From a virus (Duplodnaviria; Caudoviricetes), in IMG/VR virus record IMGVR_UViG_3300033076_001279, positions 1 through 38,938 of that record: a stretch of DNA of 38,938 nt; one strand, written 5' to 3'. Both the position numbers and the translations under genes were made by a program. Below the pieces are notes generated by a model that did not search any database, was not told the DNA's origin, and was given only the letters and a program-made list of their open reading frames with translations. Of this stretch, positions 1 to 8,842 are shown one piece after another. Numbering within the stretch: the stretch's first letter is position 1; each line of letters starts with the position of its first letter.

Positions 1-69
1 GATGGCTACGAAAGGGCTTAGATTATTTGAAAGAATAGTTTAAGCCTTTTCTTTTTAATAGCGTTGGAA
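1..69. repeat. attC-like site 1 (partial, right part only)
   Basis: GATGGCTACG...AGCCTTTTCTTTTTAA-TAGC-GTTGGAA; closely resembles site 2. Confidence 0.8.
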
Positions 70-186: not shown

Positions 187-873
187 ATGCCAATAAGTAA
201 AGTAGAAAATATTGATTGCATCGAGGGAATGAAGCAATTTCCTGATAAATTTTTTGATTTGGCTATTTGCGACCCACCTTATGGAAACGAATCTTCCTAT
301 AACAATAGAAGGAAGTTAAAACCATATGAAAATATTGAGCCTTTACCAGAATATTACTATGAATTATTTAGGATTTCAAAACATCAAATTATTTGGGGTG
401 CAAATTATCTAAGAAATTATGATTTAAAAGGAGGCGGTATTGTTTGGAATAAATTAGGGACTTATACAGAACATAGAAAGCAAGCTCCTACTATTGGGGA
501 CTGTGAATATGCTTTTACCTCTAAAACAAATAATATAAAAATGTTTTCTTATGCTTGGATGGGAAATGTTTTAGGGAATAATTATACAATAAATCCACCT
601 GAATCAAAAGAAAAATTTCATCCAAGTCAAAAACCTATTGCATTATATATTTGGCTACTCGAAAACTACGCAAAGCAAGGCGATAAAATACTTGACACAC
701 ATTTAGGCAGTCAATCGAGCCGAATAGCAGCATACAAGAAAGGCTTTGATTTTTGGGGCTTTGAAATCGACAAAGATTATTTCGAGGAAGGGAACGAAAG
801 GTTTGAAAAATCAATAGCGATGCCTTTGTTTGATAGTATCCGTCCGCAAATGCAGCAACTATCCCTTGTATAA
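187..873 (+). CDS. N6-adenine/N4-cytosine DNA methyltransferase (beta class)
   Basis: DPPY catalytic motif N-terminal, HPSQKP, LDTHLGSQSS SAM-binding motif C-terminal. Confidence 0.92.
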   Translation: MPISKVENIDCIEGMKQFPDKFFDLAICDPPYGNESSYNNRRKLKPYENIEPLPEYYYELFRISKHQIIWGANYLRNYDLKGGGIVWNKLGTYTEHRKQAPTIGDCEYAFTSKTNNIKMFSYAWMGNVLGNNYTINPPESKEKFHPSQKPIALYIWLLENYAKQGDKILDTHLGSQSSRIAAYKKGFDFWGFEIDKDYFEEGNERFEKSIAMPLFDSIRPQMQQLSLV

Positions 874-875
874 AC

Positions 876-963
876 TTCCAACTTTCAGCAAAATGATGGC
901 TACGGAATAAGGCTAAAACTTTGAAATATAGGTTTTAGCCTTTTCTTTTTGCGAACGTTGGAT
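876..963. repeat. attC-like site 2
   Basis: TTCCAAC-TTTCA-GCAAAATG...CTTTTTGC-GAAC-GTTGGAT. Confidence 0.85.
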
Positions 964-1074
964 GTTAAAGGTGCTTGCATTTTTCGCATTAACTTTGTCG
1001 CAAAATAAGTAAGAAAACCTATGGAAATGTCAGAAAAATTTACTATTTTGTAGTATAAATCAAACACTACAAAA

Positions 1075-1914
1075 ATGGTAATTTTAGATTTATTTAGTGG
1101 TATTGGTGGATTTTCAAAAGGGTTAATTGATGCAGGATTTCAATTTGAAACACATTATTTTTCTGAAATTGATAAACACGCAATAGCTAATTATTCTTAC
1201 AATTTTAAAAATTCACATTATGTCGGTTCAGTTACAAATGTTCGAGGAACAGAACTCAAAAGACCAAATATTATCACTTTCGGAAGCCCTTGCCAAGACT
1301 TCTCAATGGCTGGAAAACGATTGGGGATGGAAGGAGAAAGAAGTAGCCTTATCCTTGAAGCAATTAGACTTATATCCGAGTGCAGACCTGACGTATTTAT
1401 CTGGGAAAATGTTAAAGGAACATTCTCCTCAAATGATGGTGCAGACTTTATCGCAATACTCCAAGCCTTTGCCAACATTGGGGGTTATAGAATTGAATGG
1501 CAATTGCTTAATACAGCATGGGTTTTACCCCAAAATAGAGAGCGATTGTACCTTGTTGGACATCTTGCAGGAAGAAGTAAGCTCGGAGTATTTCCTATCG
1601 GAACAGAAAATAGAAAATATCAAGAATTGGAAATCGAGAGAAAACCCACTTTCTCATGTCTTACACGTAGGGGAGCAGGAGAATACCATTCAGGTATGCA
1701 ACTTATTAGAATAAAGAACAAATTAAGAGTTCCAACTGAAATTGAATGTGAAAAAGCACAAGGATTTCCAGAGAATTGGACTAAATATGGCATTAATAGT
1801 GCAGGTATTTATGAAATACCAAGAGTAGAAAGATATAAAATGTTAGGAAATTCAGTAACTACCAAAATAGTAGAATTAGTTGGAAACGGAATTAGAAATT
1901 GCCTTGAAACCTAA
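1075..1914 (+). CDS. C5-cytosine DNA methyltransferase (large/alpha polypeptide)
   Basis: DLFSGIGG (motif I), GSPCQDFS (IV), WENVKG (VI), PQNRERLY (VIII), LGNSV (X). Confidence 0.95.
   Translation: MVILDLFSGIGGFSKGLIDAGFQFETHYFSEIDKHAIANYSYNFKNSHYVGSVTNVRGTELKRPNIITFGSPCQDFSMAGKRLGMEGERSSLILEAIRLISECRPDVFIWENVKGTFSSNDGADFIAILQAFANIGGYRIEWQLLNTAWVLPQNRERLYLVGHLAGRSKLGVFPIGTENRKYQELEIERKPTFSCLTRRGAGEYHSGMQLIRIKNKLRVPTEIECEKAQGFPENWTKYGINSAGIYEIPRVERYKMLGNSVTTKIVELVGNGIRNCLET
1220..1714 (+). CDS. Nested +1-frame ORF, probable beta polypeptide of the C5 methyltransferase
   Basis: 164 codons open in AT-rich DNA inside the MTase gene; CTLLDILQEEVSSEYFLS resembles the motif of M.EcoHK31I-type alternative-frame subunits. 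Confidence 0.65.
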   Translation: MSVQLQMFEEQNSKDQILSLSEALAKTSQWLENDWGWKEKEVALSLKQLDLYPSADLTYLSGKMLKEHSPQMMVQTLSQYSKPLPTLGVIELNGNCLIQHGFYPKIESDCTLLDILQEEVSSEYFLSEQKIENIKNWKSRENPLSHVLHVGEQENTIQVCNLLE

Positions 1915-1915
1915 C

Positions 1916-2002
1916 TTCCAACTTATAGCAAAAAGATGGCTTATACCATATTTCCGAAATCAGGAAAATGGTTTTAGCCTTTACTTTTTGCGTGCGTTGG
2001 AC
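1916..2002. repeat. attC-like site 3
   Basis: TTCCAAC-TTATA-GCAAAAAG...CTTTTTGC-GTGC-GTTGGAC. Confidence 0.85.
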
Positions 2003-2090
2003 GACAAATTAACTAAAAATACCTCGCTAATTTCTTGTCCAAGTGATGCAAATTGACTAAATTATGGCATAATCAAACAATAAAAATAAA

Positions 2091-2276
2091 ATGACTGGAA
2101 AAGAAATGATAAAAATAATTCAAGATAATGGTCTTGAAGACTTTAAAATAAAAATCAATAAACTTGTTTCAAGAGATGGGAATTGGAGCTTTAATTTAGA
2201 GTCTTATTTTTTAGACTCAATGGTTGATATAGGGCATTCTGATAGAACGGTAACTTTTGATTTAATTGACGATTAA
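2091..2276 (+). CDS. Hypothetical cassette protein
   Basis: ORF with A-rich leader inside cassette 3. Confidence 0.7.
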   Translation: MTGKEMIKIIQDNGLEDFKIKINKLVSRDGNWSFNLESYFLDSMVDIGHSDRTVTFDLIDD

Positions 2277-2277
2277 T

Positions 2278-2454
2278 ATGGAAAACAGAAAATTTACAGA
2301 AGAAGACTTTCACGCTGTTGGATGGCATTTTGAAGCGTATTTTATAGAAGTTCTCAATAAAGAATATGATTTAGAAGACGCAATAAACGATTTACGTGGG
2401 CTTATTGGCTCAAAGTATGATTCAAGGGTAATTCAAGAATCATCGAATAAGTAA
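2278..2454 (+). CDS. Hypothetical cassette protein (start probably ATG 2278)
   Basis: Starts 1 nt after the previous stop; its own stop abuts site 4. Confidence 0.7.
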   Translation: MENRKFTEEDFHAVGWHFEAYFIEVLNKEYDLEDAINDLRGLIGSKYDSRVIQESSNK

Positions 2455-2455
2455 C

Positions 2456-2542
2456 TTCCAACTTTTAGTAAAAAGATGCTTGGTTTTAAAGTATCTTTTT
2501 GCTAAATTAGGTATTAACATTTACTTTTTACGAGCGTTGGAA
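2456..2542. repeat. attC-like site 4
   Basis: TTCCAAC-TTTTA-GTAAAAAG...CTTTTTAC-GAGC-GTTGGAA. Confidence 0.85.
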
Positions 2543-2600
2543 TCAAAGCACTTTGAAGTATCAAAGTGAGTTGATGTCCGCAAACCAATAAAATAAAAAT

Positions 2601-2927
2601 ATGCTAATTAAAGAAGCTACTTACGAAAATGTAATGGTTGAAACAAGAAAAAGAGTTTCAGATGATGTTTTTGGCTGTGATTGTTGTGAAAAAGAAATAA
2701 AAGAGTATCCAAACGAAAACAGTAGATTAGAGCTTACTGTTTTTAAAGGCAATTCTGATGATGCTGAACACTTGCACTTTTGCTCGTGGGAGTGTGTTTT
2801 GAAACAACTTCCTAAAATAAAAACTGATTATTTTATAAGTTTACCCTTTGTTTATTTTGATGAAAAATGTGAAGATAAACGTTCAGGAAATGAATTAATA
2901 TCTTTGCTGAAAAGATTGAAGATATAG
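2601..2927 (+). CDS. Hypothetical cassette protein, possible Zn-binding (CDCC...FCSWEC)
   Basis: Paired Cys motifs reminiscent of TRASH/treble-clef fingers; fills cassette 4. Confidence 0.7.
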   Translation: MLIKEATYENVMVETRKRVSDDVFGCDCCEKEIKEYPNENSRLELTVFKGNSDDAEHLHFCSWECVLKQLPKIKTDYFISLPFVYFDEKCEDKRSGNELISLLKRLKI

Positions 2928-2930
2928 CAC

Positions 2931-3009
2931 TTCCAACGCCTTGATGGGCGATGGAATAGTGATTTTTGACAAAAAATAGGCTTTCATTTACGCCTATCTA
3001 ATGTTGGAA
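2931..3009. repeat. attC-like site 5
   Basis: TTCCAAC-GCCTT-GATGGGCG...CGCCTATC-TAAT-GTTGGAA. Confidence 0.85.
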
Positions 3010-3057
3010 CTCAAACAAATTTTAAATTACAAAAGCGACTGAAAGTCGCACGACATT

Positions 3058-3300
3058 ATGAAAGAACAAGTTTTTTTTTGTGCCGCACATGGAAAAAATG
3101 TTGGCGAAAGAGTAACAATAACAGGCTCATCAGTTAATCAAGTAAAGGGTAAGCTACGAAAAAGTTTTATAGAAGGAATTATCATTGGCGGTGGCACAAT
3201 TTGGGAAAAACACGAGAAGGGTCTTGGATGGCATAAAAGCGTTGCAAGTTGGAGTCCACGCACAAAAACAACTCTGAAAGCTAAGCATATTTTAGAGTAG
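3058..3300 (+). CDS. Hypothetical basic cassette protein
   Basis: ORF fills cassette 5. Confidence 0.7.
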   Translation: MKEQVFFCAAHGKNVGERVTITGSSVNQVKGKLRKSFIEGIIIGGGTIWEKHEKGLGWHKSVASWSPRTKTTLKAKHILE

Positions 3301-3305
3301 AAAAT

Positions 3306-3392
3306 TTCCAACCAAAAGCATTATGAAGATTGGAAAATAATGCTTATATTAGATAAGAAATAACAAACTTTTACTTAATGCGAGCGTTGGAA
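3306..3392. repeat. attC-like site 6
   Basis: TTCCAAC-CAAAA-GCATTATG...CTTAATGC-GAGC-GTTGGAA. Confidence 0.85.
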
Positions 3393-3451
3393 TCAAAGCA
3401 CTTTGAAGTATCAGAGTGAGTTGATGTCCGCAAACCAAAACAAATAAAACT

Positions 3452-3811
3452 ATGAGAATAGAATTAGAGAAAATACCTGTAAAAAATGAGGGAGGAACAA
3501 ACAATATAACTTGTAATTTGATTGAATTAGGGTTAGAAAGTTTAAACCCATATTTTCATGTTACAATCATTTTAAATAACGAATTATATCAAACAATTAG
3601 AAAAGTGTATCCGCCAGATGATTATATAATTGGAGCAAATGAAGTTGATTTCTTTGTTAATAATGATATTCTAAATAACTGTTTAGTTGTAATTCAAAAT
3701 TTGAACTTACCACACAAAATTGAAAATTTTGTTACAACTTATAAAATATTTGAGTTTGGAGATATTACGGAGTTTATTAAAACAATAGGGGTAAAAGCAA
3801 CAAAAATATAA
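3452..3811 (+). CDS. Hypothetical cassette protein
   Basis: ORF fills cassette 6. Confidence 0.75.
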   Translation: MRIELEKIPVKNEGGTNNITCNLIELGLESLNPYFHVTIILNNELYQTIRKVYPPDDYIIGANEVDFFVNNDILNNCLVVIQNLNLPHKIENFVTTYKIFEFGDITEFIKTIGVKATKI

Positions 3812-3834
3812 TAAATGTTTAGCGAATAAGCAAC

Positions 3835-3920
3835 TTCCAACTAAAAGCATTGAGAAGTTTTGAAATAAAATATCTTTTTGCTATATTGTTTAATACATTT
3901 TCTTAATGCGAGCGTTGGAA
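3835..3920. repeat. attC-like site 7
   Basis: TTCCAAC-TAAAA-GCATTGAG...CTTAATGC-GAGC-GTTGGAA. Confidence 0.85.
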
Positions 3921-3962
3921 TACAAATATTTTTAAATTATTTTTCTAATATGATGTCGCAAA

Positions 3963-4394
3963 ATGAATATACTTAACAGATTACCTAAATGGCAAATTGA
4001 AAAGGTGCTTAATCAGCCAAATTGTGATATAGATTTGGATTTTTTAGGATTTTTAGATATTTATGAAACGCTATCAAAAATAATTCCTAAATATTTCACA
4101 GTTGTTGATTTAGGGTGTGCATACAATCCGCAGTGTTTCTTTTTTGAAGAACATAAATCATATTTGGCTGTTGATATATCTGATTGCGTGAAATTTCAAG
4201 CAAAAAATTGTGAAATTTTTCAAAAAAGCATAAGTGAATTTATTAATGAAAATTTAAGTAATTTGAATTTAGAAGAAACATTTGCTATATGCAGTTATGT
4301 GCCATCTTGGGGTGGAGATAATGGAAAAATAGCAAGAGATACATTTAAAAATGTTTTTGTATATTATCCATCATCAACTCGTGAAATATCGTAG
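3963..4394 (+). CDS. Small SAM-dependent methyltransferase-fold protein
   Basis: VVDLGCAY (motif I-like) followed by YLAVDIS (motif II-like). Confidence 0.6.
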   Translation: MNILNRLPKWQIEKVLNQPNCDIDLDFLGFLDIYETLSKIIPKYFTVVDLGCAYNPQCFFFEEHKSYLAVDISDCVKFQAKNCEIFQKSISEFINENLSNLNLEETFAICSYVPSWGGDNGKIARDTFKNVFVYYPSSTREIS

Positions 4395-4403
4395 AATAAG
4401 CAC

Positions 4404-4489
4404 TTCCAACCAAATTGATTCTGATGGCTTGGTAGTGATTTATGATTTGAAAAAAAAGTTTTAGCCTTTTCAGAATCATGACGTTGGAA
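4404..4489. repeat. attC-like site 8
   Basis: TTCCAAC-CAAAT-TGATTCTG...CAGAATCA-TGAC-GTTGGAA. Confidence 0.85.
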
Positions 4490-4605
4490 GGCAAGGGAAT
4501 TTCTTTACTCCAACGCTGTATAAATGTCGCCAAATAAATTTATGTAAATGCTTGACTATTAGGTGATTAATTAGTATTTTTAGGTATTACTAAATTTAAT
4601 TTTAA

Positions 4606-5298
4606 ATGATAAAATCTAATAATCTACTGCATGGAGATTGCTTTTTAGCAATAAAAGAAATAGAAGACAATAGTGTTGATTTAATTGTTACTGACCCCCC
4701 ATACGGAATAAACTTTACCAAAGGTTATAAAAGTGGCTCAACAGAATTAGTTCATGGTGATGATGGGTTTTCGGTAATGGTTTTTGTTGATGAGTTGATG
4801 AAAGAGTTTAAAAGGGTTTTAAGACCTGATAGTGCAATTTATATTTTTACACGTTTTGACGTAATGCCGTATTGGTGGTTAAAAATAAAGAATTATTTTG
4901 ACACAAAAAATCAAATAGTATGGTTTAAAGGCGGCGGTGGAATGGGAGATTTGACTGGAAATTTTTCTTTTAATTATGAAAGTATAATGTTTGCTACAAA
5001 TGGAAAACATAAAATAAGAGGGAAAAGAGATGGTTCAGTTTGGCAAATTGGCAAATGCAAGCAAGAATACCATGAAACACAAAAACCCGTTGAATTAATT
5101 GAAAAAATCATAAAACATAGCACAGACGAAGGAATGACAGTCTTTGACCCCTTTATGGGAAGCGGCACAACTGGGGTAGCTTGCAAAAATTTGAATAGGA
5201 ATTTTATTGGAATTGAAATGATAGAATCTAATTTTAATATTGCAAAAAAAAGAATAGAATCTCATTGTCCGCAAGTAAATTTATTGTCCCTTGTGTAA
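4606..5298 (+). CDS. N6-adenine/N4-cytosine DNA methyltransferase (beta class)
   Basis: VTDPPY, HETQKP, FDPFMGSGTTG. Confidence 0.95.
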   Translation: MIKSNNLLHGDCFLAIKEIEDNSVDLIVTDPPYGINFTKGYKSGSTELVHGDDGFSVMVFVDELMKEFKRVLRPDSAIYIFTRFDVMPYWWLKIKNYFDTKNQIVWFKGGGGMGDLTGNFSFNYESIMFATNGKHKIRGKRDGSVWQIGKCKQEYHETQKPVELIEKIIKHSTDEGMTVFDPFMGSGTTGVACKNLNRNFIGIEMIESNFNIAKKRIESHCPQVNLLSLV

Positions 5299-5300
5299 AC

Positions 5301-5388
5301 TTCCAACTAAAAGCATTGAGATGGTTGGGTTTTAGAGTTAATTTATTGATTTACAATTACTTACCTTTTCTTAATGCGGATGTTGGAA
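5301..5388. repeat. attC-like site 9
   Basis: TTCCAAC-TAAAA-GCATTGAG...CTTAATGC-GGAT-GTTGGAA. Confidence 0.85.
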
Positions 5389-5476
5389 CGCTAAGGAGTT
5401 AGAAAAAACCTCGCTAATTTCTTGTCCAAGTGATAAAAATTGACTAAATTATTAGCATAATTCAAACACAAAAACT

Positions 5477-5779
5477 ATGGAAATCAATCATGCCCCTCAA
5501 ATTGTTTCATTTGCTCATATTGACCCTAATACAAAAGATTTATATACTTATTACTTCCAAATAACCAAAGGGAAAATATGGCTTCATTCTATTGATAAAT
5601 GGGAGAAAAATGGAAGGACTGGAAATGGTTACAAACATGAAGAAGTTTTTCATTTTGAATATAAAAATACAATTACAAATTATGAAACAGGGGAATTTGA
5701 ACAGCCCAAAGTTCCTGAATATTTAATGAATAATGCAAAACTATTTTTTATTGGTTACGTGGCAAATAATTGTATATAA
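5477..5779 (+). CDS. Hypothetical cassette protein
   Basis: ORF with AAAACTATG start context in cassette 9. Confidence 0.75.
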   Translation: MEINHAPQIVSFAHIDPNTKDLYTYYFQITKGKIWLHSIDKWEKNGRTGNGYKHEEVFHFEYKNTITNYETGEFEQPKVPEYLMNNAKLFFIGYVANNCI

Positions 5780-5787
5780 ATAAACCT

Positions 5788-6006
5788 ATGAGTAAAATGA
5801 AAAAAGTAATTTGCTATATATTTGGGCATAAAGAAGAAGATTTTACAGATTCTGGCTATATGATTTGTAAAAGATGTAAATGTCACGAATATTATGACGG
5901 TTGGGGAATTGGTATTTTTGCATCTATTTGGCAAAGAATAAAACGAAAAATTGGAAGGATAAAAGATGAAATTTACTATCAAATTTTTAATGAATTGCCG
6001 TTTTAA
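5788..6006 (+). CDS. Small hypothetical protein with C..GH...CxRC motif (DUF1660-like); start uncertain
   Basis: ICYIFGHK...ICKRC pattern typical of small phage Zn-binding proteins; stop just before site 10. Confidence 0.65.
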   Translation: MSKMKKVICYIFGHKEEDFTDSGYMICKRCKCHEYYDGWGIGIFASIWQRIKRKIGRIKDEIYYQIFNELPF

Positions 6007-6010
6007 GCAC

Positions 6011-6089
6011 TTCCAACTTTGGCATTTGAGATGCCGAAGTATTTTAAAACTTAAAATTGCGTAGCGTTTGCTTAAATGCTATGTTGGAA
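6011..6089. repeat. attC-like site 10
   Basis: TTCCAAC-TTTGG-CATTTGAG...CTTAAATG-CTAT-GTTGGAA. Confidence 0.85.
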
Positions 6090-6148
6090 GATGCGGAACT
6101 TTCAAATCCGCTCTAATCAAATGTCTCTGAGAACCAAAAAACAAGAAT

Positions 6149-6373
6149 ATGATTTTATTGCAATTTGATAGAATGAAAGAATTTGTTGAAACAATGCAGC
6201 CTTTCATTGAAAAATATAGAAGCGAATATCATAAAAACGTATTTGAAATTGATAGCACTGTTTGCTACGATGAATATGAATTGTACGAATATTTACATAA
6301 TAATGGAGAAATTACAGAAAAATTTGAATTTGCTTTACATTTTTCTGAATTTGGGCATATAATCAAACATTAG
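6149..6373 (+). CDS. Hypothetical cassette protein
   Basis: ORF fills cassette 10. Confidence 0.7.
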   Translation: MILLQFDRMKEFVETMQPFIEKYRSEYHKNVFEIDSTVCYDEYELYEYLHNNGEITEKFEFALHFSEFGHIIKH

Positions 6374-6385
6374 CGTAGAACAATT

Positions 6386-6473
6386 TTCCAACTCATAGTA
6401 ATGAGATGGCTTTGGTTAAAAGTTGAATTAAATGGTTGTGGTTTCGAGCCTTTTCTTATTACGGATGTTGGAA
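6386..6473. repeat. attC-like site 11
   Basis: TTCCAAC-TCATA-GTAATGAG...CTTATTAC-GGAT-GTTGGAA. Confidence 0.85.
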
Positions 6474-6664
6474 CACAAGTTTAGATTGCAAACTCGCTGA
6501 ACAAACGTCCAAGTGATGAATGAGTCACAAACCAAACAAACTGCCGAGTAGTAAAATTATTGAAATGTTGGTCGCATTCTTTGTAACTACTCGCCAATTT
6601 GCTGTCGGTTTGATGCTTGCACCCTTTGAATAAGTCCAAAGGGAGTGCTTGTCGAAATGATTTG
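6474..6664. ncRNA. ORF-less structured cassette, candidate ncRNA
   Basis: No + strand ORF; nested stems CAAACC/GGTTTG and CGAGTAGT/ACTACTCG, then hairpin GCACCCTTTG/CAAAGGGAGTGC. Confidence 0.45.
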
Positions 6665-6715
6665 TCCAACTACATAAACGACAATCTAAATTAGTTAAAA
6701 CTTTTTAAATTGTCA
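6665..6715 (-). other. Candidate attI-like primary recombination site
   Basis: Array ends with a lone TCCAAC core lacking a GTTGGA partner, followed by TACATAAAC and the inverted repeat GACAATCTAAA...TTTAAATTGTC. Confidence 0.5.
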
Positions 6716-6718
6716 AGT

Positions 6719-7234
6719 TTATGTTTTCTTTTTTTTCAGACTCGAATAGGGTTGATTTACTTTTAGATTCATTAGAGAATCTTGTAAAAATTGCACTTTA
6801 CATTTTAGCTTTTGCTGCTCTACTTTCAGTTTCTGTATTTCTTCTGAGTTTTGCTTGGTGGATAATACATTTTGTAAAAACGTGTATATAGCAATAAATG
6901 AACCTATGAGTATTGTAATATTTTTAACCCAAAACTCAAAGGTTATTTTAAATTTTTCCCATCCTTCTTTTAAATATTTTTCCGACTTATATGAGTTTAC
7001 CCCTTCTTCTAAAAGTCCAATTGTATCTGGATTGTTGTTTCTTTTATATAAGACTTCGCTTGAAGATTCTAATTCATAAACAGTTTTTTTTATTAAAGGT
7101 ACTTCATAAGACAAGATATTTGATAGCTCTTTCAATGAATATAAATCATGGCTATTAAATCGCTCTTTTGGCATTTTCCAAAGAGCTTCTAATATTTTGT
7201 GTTTAATTCTATATTTTTGAGGTATTATTTTCAT
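6719..7234 (-). CDS. Hypothetical protein: wHTH-like N-terminus, one TM segment, coiled coil (start probably ATG 7234)
   Basis: Hydrophobic ITILIGSFIAIYTFL followed by a heptad-rich tail. Confidence 0.65.
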   Translation of the reverse strand: MKIIPQKYRIKHKILEALWKMPKERFNSHDLYSLKELSNILSYEVPLIKKTVYELESSSEVLYKRNNNPDTIGLLEEGVNSYKSEKYLKEGWEKFKITFEFWVKNITILIGSFIAIYTFLQNVLSTKQNSEEIQKLKVEQQKLKCKVQFLQDSLMNLKVNQPYSSLKKKKT

Positions 7235-7256
7235 TTTTCCAACGTACAAAAACACT

Positions 7257-7289
7257 ACTTCGGTTAAATGTATTAACCGAAGTTTTTTT
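7257..7289. terminator. Intrinsic terminator, probably bidirectional
   Basis: ACTTCGGTTAA-ATGTA-TTAACCGAAGT with T-rich tails on both strands. Confidence 0.75.
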
Positions 7290-7666
7290 TATAGCTGACT
7301 TTCAAAATAAAATACTCCATTGAACGGCTTATCAACTGTTATATCAAATAGTTGAGAAATTTTTTTCATGTATTCAATGCGTTTCAATGCTTTATTAGAT
7401 TTGGTTGTTTTGGGCAATTTAGCCAGCCGAATGTGAAAAGTTTTCATATATTCTCGAAACTGTTCTAAATCTTTTCCTCGTTTGTAATGATTGATAATTG
7501 AAATACATGGGATAAGATTATAAAACTCATCAGCATTGCCTTCTACATATTTTTGCTTAAATCTATATTGTGGCATGACGTGGTCTATTTGCCAATCATT
7601 GCCTAAAATTTGCCCTGTGTAAGCACAACGACCGCCAAATCTTGTTTGTACTTGTTCTCTTTTCAT
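7289..7666 (-). CDS. HNH endonuclease-family protein
   Basis: GRCAYTG...WQIDHVMP...NLIPC...INHYK. Confidence 0.85.
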   Translation of the reverse strand: MKREQVQTRFGGRCAYTGQILGNDWQIDHVMPQYRFKQKYVEGNADEFYNLIPCISIINHYKRGKDLEQFREYMKTFHIRLAKLPKTTKSNKALKRIEYMKKISQLFDITVDKPFNGVFYFESQL

Positions 7667-7702
7667 TTAGCTTCTATTTTTTGTACTTCAATAGAATTAA
7701 TA

Positions 7703-7915
7703 TTAATCGCATAATTCAAGTTCACTCGCTTTAAATTCATTACATACGCCATCTTTTATTTTTAAACCCCATTGAAACTCTCCATCTTCAATGTCTTTTA
7801 TACTTTTTGCCCTCCATAATTCACATGGCTGTTTAAATATATGACTACAATTCACAGAATCTTTTGCTTTAATTTTTGTGCCAATTGGCAATTTTAATAA
7901 ATCAGTAGGTTTCAT
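7703..7915 (-). CDS. Hypothetical protein
   Basis: ORF in operon context. Confidence 0.65.
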   Translation of the reverse strand: MKPTDLLKLPIGTKIKAKDSVNCSHIFKQPCELWRAKSIKDIEDGEFQWGLKIKDGVCNEFKASELELCD

Positions 7916-7936
7916 ATTATTTTTTATTTCAAATTA

Positions 7937-8842
7937 TTAAAAATCTTTCAATAAATCAATATTAACGTTTCTTTTTGCACACTTGGTATAAAGCATGGTA
8001 GTTGATAAGTCAGCGTGTCCGAGAAGTTCGCTAATCTTATCAATTGATGTATCATTGTTAAGTAAATGAGTAGCAAATGAATGTCGAAGCGTGTGGATAC
8101 ACCCTTTTGATTTTATCCCAGCCTTTTCTTTTGCTTTGTGAAATTCTGTTTCGGCTGTTCTTCCTGATAATTGCTTACCTTGCTTGTTTTGAAAAATAAA
8201 CTCATTTGATTCAACTTCTATTCCTTCAAAATACTTTCTATAATAATCAGTAAGTGTTGAGAGAACTAATTTCGGAAGCATTACATAACGCTGTTTACAG
8301 CCTTTGCCTTTCTGAACAAACAACTTCATATCGTGTCGGTTAATATCGCAAAATCTTAAATTACATATTTCGTTTAATCTTAAACCGCAACCGTAGGCAA
8401 ACATAAAGAATAGCATATATTTTAGGCTCTCTGTTGTGTTCAAAATATTTTTCACATCATCTACACTAAAAATCTTTGGTAATGGCTTAGAACGTATAAA
8501 ATTAAGTCTTTTCAAGAACTCATTATTTTCTCCGATAAAATCAAGATACTTAATTAATGCTGCTCTGATTTGAAATTTACGTGCCGAGCCTAAATCTTTT
8601 TTTAGCCAATAATATGCGTTTACAGACGTTGAATTTATTTGAGCGTTGTGTTTATCGTTTACAAATAGATAAACGTTTTTGATGTCAGAAATATATGTTG
8701 TAATAGTTTTCTGTGAATGATTGCAAATGACTAAACGCTTTTCAAACTGTTCAATATTGTGTTTTTGTTCATCAGTCAAATTTTTTAGTTTTTTAACTGG
8801 GCTTTTTTTGTACGATGGTATGATGGCTGTGTATGTGTACAT
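7937..8842 (-). CDS. Tyrosine recombinase, IntI/XerD-like; candidate cassette integrase
   Basis: LPKIFS, YGCGLRLNE (R), GKGCKQR (K), HTLRHSFATHLL (HxxR), LLGH, TTMLY (Y); short SAM-like N-terminus; no IntI-specific insertion. Confidence 0.92.
   Translation of the reverse strand: MYTYTAIIPSYKKSPVKKLKNLTDEQKHNIEQFEKRLVICNHSQKTITTYISDIKNVYLFVNDKHNAQINSTSVNAYYWLKKDLGSARKFQIRAALIKYLDFIGENNEFLKRLNFIRSKPLPKIFSVDDVKNILNTTESLKYMLFFMFAYGCGLRLNEICNLRFCDINRHDMKLFVQKGKGCKQRYVMLPKLVLSTLTDYYRKYFEGIEVESNEFIFQNKQGKQLSGRTAETEFHKAKEKAGIKSKGCIHTLRHSFATHLLNNDTSIDKISELLGHADLSTTMLYTKCAKRNVNIDLLKDF

What the first reader, a model, noticed from the sequence alone, without database searches (positions are those of the whole stretch)
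876..6473. Arms covary: structure, not sequence, is conserved
Seen: arm pairs GCAAAAAG/CTTTTTGC, GTAAAAAG/CTTTTTAC, GATGGGCG/CGCCTATC, GCATTGAG/CTTAATGC, TGATTCTG/CAGAATCA, CATTTGAG/CTTAAATG and GTAATGAG/CTTATTAC differ in sequence but keep pairing. The 5-nt and 4-nt spacers next to the cores keep their length and mostly do not pair. Inference: selection acts on a single-stranded hairpin with an unpaired central spacer, as in attC, rather than on a double-stranded binding site.
Basis: partly seen in the sequence, partly recalled or inferred. Interest (0 to 1): 0.85.

Follow-up and report, generated by a model that had tools for sequence, protein, structure and literature searches.

The report
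Phage integron-like hairpin cassette sites
A phage of Bacteroidota carries ten repeated DNA sites whose two arms change together and stay complementary; gene units are swapped exactly at these sites in related phages and in Emticicia-type chromosomes, so they likely work as folded single-strand recombination sites of an integron variant whose enzyme lacks the domain thought to be needed for that job.

Summary
Observation confirmed. Ten sites (876-6473) have cores TTCCAAC/GTTGGA, 5- and 4-nt spacers that pair only at chance level, and 8-bp arms in which 7 of 8 pairs change on both sides. Covariation holds in 170 sites from phages and Spirosomataceae chromosomes under a tree-aware test. G·T pairs sit on one strand (92 against 11 A·C), whichever way the genes run. 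That strand behaves as the attC bottom strand: duplicated cassettes and variant contigs break at its 5' core. Host arrays lie behind a recombinase and a lone docking core. Host and phage recombinases both lack the I2 insertion. Phage cassette genes are inverted (46:0), host genes mostly not (133:18). One host-type cassette in the phage is 93% like a chromosomal one. 'Structure, not sequence' is overstated: cores and several inner bases are fixed. Single-strand recombination and the acting enzyme are inferred, not shown. Not found in print in 7 searches. The scan has noted kindred Bacteroidota and inverted phage arrays on other DNA.

The parts
1..69 (+). site cut by the contig start (loop, right arm, right core)
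   Evidence: missing left arm supplied by an X1 contig, table 5c
187..873 (+). inverted cassette gene: N6/N4 DNA methyltransferase; minor variant in run X1
876..963 (+). attC-like site (+ strand = folded, bottom-like strand); T·T mismatch; junction of two variants in X1
1075..1914 (+). inverted cassette gene: C5 cytosine methyltransferase
1916..2002 (+). attC-like site
2091..2454 (+). two small ORFs of unknown function in one cassette
2456..2542 (+). attC-like site (predicted lowest-energy fold is an alternative hairpin)
2601..2927 (+). inverted cassette gene, 108 aa, unknown
2931..3009 (+). attC-like site, short type
3058..3300 (+). inverted cassette gene, 80 aa, unknown
3306..3392 (+). attC-like site; T·T mismatch
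3452..3811 (+). inverted cassette gene, 119 aa, unknown
3835..3920 (+). attC-like site; other left neighbours join here in X1 and X2
3963..4394 (+). inverted cassette gene, 143 aa; seen with other neighbours in X1, X2 and X3
4404..4489 (+). attC-like site
4606..5298 (+). inverted cassette gene: N6/N4 DNA methyltransferase
5301..5388 (+). attC-like site, up to 95% identical to Emticicia chromosomal sites
5477..6006 (+). two small ORFs in one cassette (second: weak DUF1660)
6011..6089 (+). attC-like site, short type (alternative lowest-energy fold)
6149..6373 (+). inverted cassette gene, 74 aa, unknown
6386..6473 (+). attC-like site of the host-type cassette
6474..6718 (.). host-type non-coding tail with repeated GTC motifs; site plus tail 93% identical over 339 nt to a Spirosomataceae chromosome, starting at the core
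6719..7234 (-). host-type cassette gene in the classical orientation, first position of the array, unknown function
7237..7300 (-). attI-like docking site: lone GTTGGAA core preceded by an 11-bp inverted repeat
   Evidence: X3 contig continues here into a site body
7289..7666 (-). HNH endonuclease gene between recombinase and docking site; a 61% homologue is a cassette gene in another phage
7937..8842 (-). 301-aa tyrosine recombinase, catalytic motifs intact, IntI-like but without the I2 insertion; candidate cassette integrase

Best explanation
The repeats mark the borders at which whole gene units are exchanged in this phage and in Emticicia-type chromosomes, and they likely act as attC-type sites in which one DNA strand folds into a hairpin that is cut and joined by a tyrosine recombinase lacking the I2 insertion. 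SHOWN: paired arms that covary; unpaired spacers; a conserved asymmetric inner loop with extra T's on the 3' arm; G·T pairs on the window's + strand; unit borders within TTCCAAC at the 5' end of that strand; a recombinase-docking core-array layout in five host genomes and in the window; no I2 in these enzymes; inverted genes in phage cassettes. INFERRED: the + strand is the recombining (bottom) strand and is cut between A and C of AAC. Circular cassettes insert at the lone core (7237-7243) and the junction is resolved by replication, as in integrons. The T bulge outside the arm gives strand choice in place of a bulge inside the arm. The window's own 301-aa enzyme does the job here (about even odds); phages without one would borrow the host enzyme. 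Inverted phage cassettes likely arise when a site with its first ~45 nt of tail comes to lie right behind the stop codon of a phage gene.
For: Covariation. Strand bias G·T:A·C is 67:6 in bacteria, where that strand is antisense to the genes, and 25:5 in phages, where it is sense. Unique arm pairs give 34:9. That strand folds lower in 87 of 119 and 40 of 51 sites and is G-rich, as reported for attC bottom strands (PMC5027507, passages). Borders: 12 duplicated chromosomal cassettes; 10 carry the identical whole site body with different left neighbours; the next body differs after the core in the 11 where it was shown. Run X1 holds two forms of this phage joined at 876 and a second neighbour at 3835. 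X3 contigs leave the window right after the core at 4410 and 7243 and go on into other site bodies. The left core is nearly fixed while the right core varies. A lone GTTGGAA lies 454-463 nt behind the recombinase stop in 4 of 4 host platforms, and 693 nt in the window. All 4 genomes with six or more sites in a 151-genome sample carry a recombinase at least 65% identical to the array enzyme. No IntI over the family cut-off in 5 of 5 array genomes.
Against: No experiment shows single-strand binding or recombination. 72 of 92 G·T cells lie at one position; without it, unique pairs give 10:3 (bacteria) and 7:3 (phage). Three of 8 arm pairs are not significant in the tree-aware test, and the tree was built from the same columns. 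Folding is weak (-7 to -21 kcal/mol). Three of 10 window sites have a non-canonical lowest-energy fold, and three are not better than shuffles (16-29 of 200). Two cases do not fit a clean left-core border: one G004 duplicate and the X2 copy of cassette 3835 differ in the loop. An 80%-identical gene shared by two phages has different upstream sites. The window's recombinase groups with three unplaced proteins (support 98), not with the host array enzymes. Its docking region does not resemble the host ones in sequence. No relative of it was found beside the other phage arrays. X3 contigs are single and shallow (depth 2.5), and X1 may be the window's own source.
Confidence: 0.8

Rival explanations
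1. The hairpins act in RNA (terminator or processing signal behind each gene), and units are exchanged by homologous or RecT-type recombination between similar repeats.
For: In phages each site follows a stop codon within about 2-25 nt on the mRNA strand. The + strand folds more stably as RNA. The phage encodes RecT. A Bacteroidota promoter-like motif (consensus recalled) lies on that strand in 55 of 127 host tails against 12.6 expected, so the strand may be transcribed in hosts too. Two exchanges fall inside the site body.
Against: Borders sit at a 7-nt core between unrelated neighbours, too short for homology. In hosts the favoured strand is antisense to the genes in 133 of 151 scored intervals. 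A lone core lies at a fixed distance behind a recombinase. No U run follows the stem. No Rfam family matches.
Confidence: 0.08
2. The sites are double-stranded palindromic recombinase sites, and the arms stay complementary through template-switch or conversion mutations rather than selection on a folded strand.
For: Such mutation also yields two-sided changes. Xer-like enzymes without I2 normally act on duplex DNA (PMC4792948, passages). Folding energies are modest.
Against: A duplex site predicts no G·T over A·C bias (92:11). Conversion would also perfect the spacers and the inner loop, which stay unpaired (27% paired). One position alternates among G·T, A-T and G-C. Core-to-core distance varies from 68 to 106 nt. 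Only the left core is held fixed.
Confidence: 0.07
3. These are ordinary attC sites served by a canonical I2-bearing IntI from elsewhere, and the neighbouring recombinases are bystanders.
For: Geometry and crossover rule match attC. Phage CALINs recombined by IntI1 are published (PMC9892861, section 3.4). The window's enzyme is not a sister of the host enzymes.
Against: No TIGR02249 match over cut-off in 5 of 5 array genomes (no positive control was in that search). The I2-less enzyme sits at the head of the array in 5 genomes. The arms mostly lack an internal bulged base, and the core ends in a purine.
Confidence: 0.05

Closest known systems
attC sites of integrons (IntI, attI, cassette arrays), especially sedentary chromosomal integrons
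   Same: Inverted cores with fixed AAC, unpaired central spacer, paired degenerate arm, variable terminal loop, extra bases on the 3' arm of the folded strand, G·T and G skew on that strand, border in its 5' core, lone docking core, long arrays (PMC5027507 and PMC7439510, passages).
   Different: The recombinase lacks I2 and scores below the IntI cut-off. Arms are mostly an unbroken 8 bp with the bulge outside them. The core reads GTTGGAA, not GTTRRRY. The host array lies downstream of, and in the same direction as, the recombinase gene. Host cassettes carry a ~300-nt conserved tail between gene and site.
Phage-borne integrons and CALINs (Qi et al. 2023, PMC9892861)
   Same: attC-type arrays in phage genomes, often without an integrase, with DNA methyltransferase cargo.
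   Different: Those were detected as canonical attC and tested with IntI1. Here the sites are a Spirosomataceae family shared with host chromosomes, all phage-type genes are inverted, and this phage has its own I2-less recombinase and docking core.
XerC/XerD/XerA-type simple tyrosine recombinases; CTX phage integration by XerCD on a folded single strand
   Same: No I2; best structural-database hits are XerA/XerC-like. CTX shows that an I2-less enzyme can use a folded strand (PMC4792948, passages).
   Different: That paper describes the CTX stem as bulge-free, mimicking duplex, and using the host's XerCD. Here there is a dedicated enzyme, a bulge and an array of exchangeable units.

Membership tests
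attC site | Inverted cores with conserved AAC/GTT | tested here: met
   10 of 10 window sites; AAC kept in 6 of 7 sites with a degenerate left core
attC site | Full core consensus GTTRRRY / RYYYAAC | tested here: not met
   The crossover core reads GTTGGAA on the top strand, with a purine at position 7
attC site | Paired, sequence-degenerate second box that covaries | tested here: met
attC site | Unpaired central spacer | tested here: met
   10 of 40 (window) and 212 of 778 (family) cells paired at the better register
attC site | Two or three extrahelical bases on one arm, typically G and T, 6 bp apart | tested here: inconclusive
   Extra T's on the 3' arm just inside the 8-bp arm are conserved. 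A bulge within the arm is absent in the window and seen in only about 4 of 51 phage sites
attC site | Bottom strand richer in G·T pairs and G, lower folding energy | tested here: met
   92:11; lower energy in 127 of 170; GC skew +0.13 to +0.18; AT skew is negative, unlike the published purine skew
attC site | Crossover in the 5' core of the bottom strand; site travels with its cassette | tested here: met
   10 of 12 duplicated cassettes clean, 1 diverged, 1 exception; X1 and X3 junctions; X2 ambiguous. The exact base is not resolved
attC site | Recombined as a folded single strand | not testable with these tools
   needs binding and recombination assays
attC site | Detected by IntegronFinder or HattCI models | not testable with these tools
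   models not available here
Integron (IntI) | Tyrosine recombinase next to the array with intact catalytic motifs | tested here: met
   five host platforms
Integron (IntI) | I2 insertion and score over the TIGR02249 cut-off | tested here: not met
   138.7 and 192.6 bits against 265; insertion absent in the alignment with IntI1 and a Vibrio IntI
Integron (IntI) | attI docking site | tested here: met
   positional only: lone core in 4 of 4 hosts and the window; function untested
Integron (IntI) | Cassette promoter Pc and genes read away from attI | tested here: inconclusive
   Host genes read away from the docking core (133 of 151); phage genes read towards it (46 of 46); no promoter mapped
Known RNA family | Rfam match at the gathering score | tested here: not met
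   five weak matches, none at threshold

The most novel reading that the evidence does not exclude
This is a living integron without I2: a Xer-like enzyme that shuffles cassettes through folded single-strand sites lacking the in-arm bulge, which would be the intermediate asked for by the published chicken-and-egg paradox of I2 and attC. Emticicia-type bacteria run it as unrecognised superintegrons. Their phages both raid that pool and mint their own back-to-front cassettes by planting site-plus-leader units behind phage genes, which would expose a route of cassette genesis.
Probability: 0.35. Interest if true: 0.88.

Novelty: new variant of a known kind. Interest (0 to 1): 0.7.

Why it matters
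I2 is described as the integrase-specific domain that accommodates the bulged bases of attC, and its origin is posed as a chicken-and-egg paradox (PMC4792948, passages). A natural system with attC-like covarying hairpins, exact cassette borders and an I2-less enzyme makes that question directly testable with two short sites and one protein. It implies that long cassette arrays in Bacteroidota (at least 43 sites in 60 kb of Emticicia aquatilis) escape IntI-based surveys. A few of those cassettes resemble defence genes (4 of 42 proteins with PADLOC hits). It also shows phage and host sharing one cassette currency. The phage cargo includes three DNA methyltransferases, and the methyltransferase cassette at 187-873 differs between co-existing forms of the phage in one run.

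Tried and rejected
The search for related loci with the recombinase in viral contigs: nothing. A first, too strict DNA pattern: 0 matches. Rfam: no family. Homologue searches gave one close relative only (51%). No relative of the window's recombinase beside other phage or metagenome arrays. Many pattern hits were chance matches without arms: 11 of the 24 loci had no site, and most loci likewise; they were dropped. An early site finder that required arm pairing was not used for pair counts; these use core-only calls. The 46 variant-core sites found later are not in the pair counts but are in the orientation and duplicate counts. The idea that the window's enzyme is a recent copy of the host enzyme was rejected by the tree (quick tree only, three Xer rows truncated, deep nodes open). 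A promoter in phage leaders: the motif was seen in 1 of 51, as expected by chance. A fixed tail end motif: only 18 of 131. No RNA holder listed. Uncovered stretches in the laid runs were not used. No circular cassette could be shown, since only contigs were available. No structure prediction or complex was run.
Full report
CONTEXT. The window is one 38,938-nt virus record. It encodes terminase, portal, capsid, tail, RecT, antirepressor and a 447-aa prophage-type integrase, so it is a temperate tailed phage. The host is inferred to be Bacteroidota from shared sites (below). The left 7.3 kb is a row of small genes separated by repeats, followed by a second, 301-aa tyrosine recombinase at 7937-8842 (-).

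1. OBSERVATION. Ten sites have the form TTCCAAC, 5 nt, 8-nt arm, loop region, complementary arm, 4 nt, GTTGGA; chance expectation is 0.04. Arm cells: 73 Watson-Crick, 5 G·T and 2 T·T of 80; shuffles gave 44.9 and never 73 in 20,000. Seven of eight arm pairs change on both sides. Spacers pair at chance level (10 of 40). The cores, the innermost G-C, the next A and a TTT run are invariant, so sequence is conserved too. An out-of-sample check: the site cut by the contig start lacks its left arm, and a contig in run X1 supplies one that pairs 8 of 8.

2. THE FAMILY. Pattern scans found the same sites in 10 other viral contigs, in metagenome contigs and in chromosomes titled Emticicia, Arcicella, Spirosomataceae and Cytophagaceae. 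In 151 genomes of the family, 10 match, 4 with six or more sites; the reversed-pattern control gave 0. The fetched regions hold 43 sites in 60 kb of E. aquatilis and 75 in one contig of an Emticicia MAG. I called 170 distinct sites from cores alone (119 bacterial, 51 phage) and anchored them by sequence alignment, not by pairing. Arm cells: 1201 Watson-Crick, 92 G·T, 11 A·C and 56 other. Among 67 unique arm pairs, 439 of 536 cells pair against 257 +/- 11 shuffled. On a tree of 140 unique rows there are 42 Watson-Crick-to-Watson-Crick co-changes on true pairs and 0-2 on each of six slid registers. With an R-scape-like null of my own, five arm pairs and one inner pair reach the floor (E 0.007). 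The invariant pair, the wobble position (E 35) and one more (E 3.3) do not. Caveats: the tree uses the same columns, the sites recombine, and the discovery patterns fixed the innermost G and C. Spacer registers vary (5/4, 5/5, 5/6, 6/5).

3. WHICH STRAND. G·T pairs lie on the strand with the 5-nt spacer first, the window's + strand: 67:6 in bacteria and 25:5 in phages. Strand assignment follows the asymmetric inner anchors seen. One position gives 72 of the 92; without it unique pairs give 10:3 and 7:3. That strand folds lower in 127 of 170 sites and is G-rich. It carries a conserved inner loop with extra T's on its 3' arm. These are published traits of the attC bottom strand (PMC5027507, PMC7439510; passages read). 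Gene direction relative to this strand flips between hosts and phages. Of 158 bacterial intervals, 133 are opposite, 18 the same and 7 without a gene; of 48 phage intervals, 46 are the same, 0 opposite and 2 without a gene. One further viral contig is mixed (L186). The bias therefore follows the site, not the mRNA of the cassette gene, which favours DNA. A promoter-like motif on that strand in 55 of 127 host tails (12.6 expected; other strand 59 against 31; consensus recalled) leaves an RNA role open.

4. WHERE UNITS ARE EXCHANGED. Sixteen pairwise hits define 12 duplicated chromosomal cassettes. In 10 the whole site body is identical while the left neighbours differ up to the core. One cross-genome pair is 96% alike throughout. 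One pair differs in left arm and loop. The following body differs after the core in the 11 cases shown. For the window itself, run X1 holds a main form (depth about 33) identical from 876 onward but with another unit of about 435 nt before 876; the methyltransferase cassette has depth 5.3; a second neighbour joins at 3835. X1 may be the window's own source. In X3, another study, single shallow contigs match up to the core at 4410 and at 7243 and go on into other site bodies. In X2 the 3835 cassette has another left neighbour but also another loop, which is ambiguous. An 80%-identical gene shared by two phages has unlike upstream sites, which counts against strict units over longer times. The left core is nearly fixed while the right one varies. 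The border is thus in the 5' core of the folded strand, the attC rule; the exact base is inferred.

5. PLATFORM AND ENZYME. In four host genomes a ~390-aa recombinase is followed by a lone GTTGGAA 454-463 nt after its stop and then by cassettes read in the same direction. In the two platforms whose ORFs I listed, a small reverse ORF lies between them. A fifth genome has recombinase and array in the same layout. Enzymes at least 65% identical occur in 5 of 151 genomes, 4 of them array-bearing; 16 more genomes have a 42-49% relative without this pattern. The window has a lone core at 7237-7243 (-), 693 nt after its recombinase. Its first cassette is of host type: gene in the classical direction, 245-nt tail, and site plus tail 93% identical over 339 nt to a Spirosomataceae chromosome, starting exactly at the core. 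Site 5301 is up to 95% identical to Emticicia sites. Both enzymes keep the catalytic motifs, score under the IntI cut-off and lack the I2 insertion. No IntI over cut-off was found in five array genomes (no positive control). The window's enzyme is 34-37% identical to the host enzymes, which are its best hit in those four genomes. It does not group with them in a quick tree. Of seven other array-bearing viral records, five gave no recombinase match, among them a complete one; two have ~407-aa enzymes of prophage-integrase size. Which enzyme serves the phage arrays is open.

6. MECHANISM. Most likely (0.8) the + strand folds during replication or transfer. A recombinase binds core and arm, cuts at AAC of the 5' core and excises or inserts cassettes, new ones entering at the lone core. 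Steps shown and steps inferred are separated in Best explanation. The lack of an in-arm bulge alongside the lack of I2 is suggestive, since I2 is described as accommodating extrahelical bases (PMC4792948, passages); the link is inference. Folding predictions are modest, and three of ten window sites prefer another fold. Rivals: RNA hairpin with homologous exchange (0.08), duplex palindrome kept symmetrical by mutation (0.07), canonical IntI from elsewhere (0.05).

7. UNEXPLAINED. A motif C(G/T)C, 9 nt, GTC lies about 30-40 nt beyond the right core in 127 of 131 bacterial and 47 of 51 phage sites (chance 12-18%). It is repeated about four times in the ~300-nt host tails and forms a small hairpin in 51 bacterial but only 3 phage sites. 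Phage cassettes keep only its first copy, in their leader.

8. COMPARISON AND NOVELTY. It works like an integron and fails IntI membership on I2. Phage attC clusters with methyltransferase cargo are published (PMC9892861; abstract and section 3.4 read). [quoted passage not shown] PMC8352920 (passages) mentions cassette genesis without describing its mechanism. Seven searches showed no description of this site family, of I2-less cassette arrays in Bacteroidota, or of these Emticicia arrays. I judged most hits from listings only. The library lacks most subscription papers, and I read no supplements; tables of phage CALINs or IntegronFinder output could list such loci. The scan's own notes report kindred Bacteroidota systems with Xer-type enzymes and inverted phage cassettes on other DNA. 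They are unchecked AI notes and not support; none matched this sequence.

VERDICT. Observation confirmed, interpretation supported with the stated limits; new variant of a known kind; interest 0.7.

Noticed in passing
G113:C1:3714198-3730016 and C2:53180-54007; G004:C1:2645912-2646532: A second, ~295-aa recombinase lies in four copies in or near the arrays of one genome, on the strand opposite the cassette genes, and a 232-aa frame lies in another array; possibly a mobile element or a recombinase-bearing cassette.
   Followed up: no
L162-L164 (host tails); window 6474-6718: Conserved ~300-nt non-coding tail between gene stop and site in host cassettes, with a repeated C(G/T)C-N9-GTC motif and a small covarying hairpin; function unknown.
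   Followed up: partly
L001:4815-8091: Two sites enclose 3.1 kb with seven ordinary co-directed phage genes, as if sites had been planted into an existing operon.
   Followed up: partly
L001:8001-8091, L007:12008-12098, L014:10801-10890, L024:9145-9233: The last site of four phage arrays is a distinct 89-91-nt type with a shared G-rich loop.
   Followed up: no
G002:C2 (160,352 nt): Sites fill both ends of the contig with the recombinase near 38-39 kb; if the contig is circular this is one array of about 90 kb on a separate replicon.
   Followed up: no
G004:C1:2665663-2665800: A site with a duplicated right half, looking like an aberrant recombination inside a site.
   Followed up: no
L165:6994-7206 and L064:7162-7377: A conserved ~70-aa ORF on the opposite strand directly behind the host recombinase, no Pfam match; possible accessory factor.
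   Followed up: partly
L196 and L198: A separate ~150-nt repeat in two or three copies in two related phages outside the arrays.
   Followed up: no
window 7667-7927: A relative in run X2 lacks the 70-aa ORF between the HNH gene and the recombinase.
   Followed up: no
16 genomes: A second group of ~390-aa recombinases (42-49% identical) in genomes without this site pattern; they may serve arrays with other cores.
   Followed up: no
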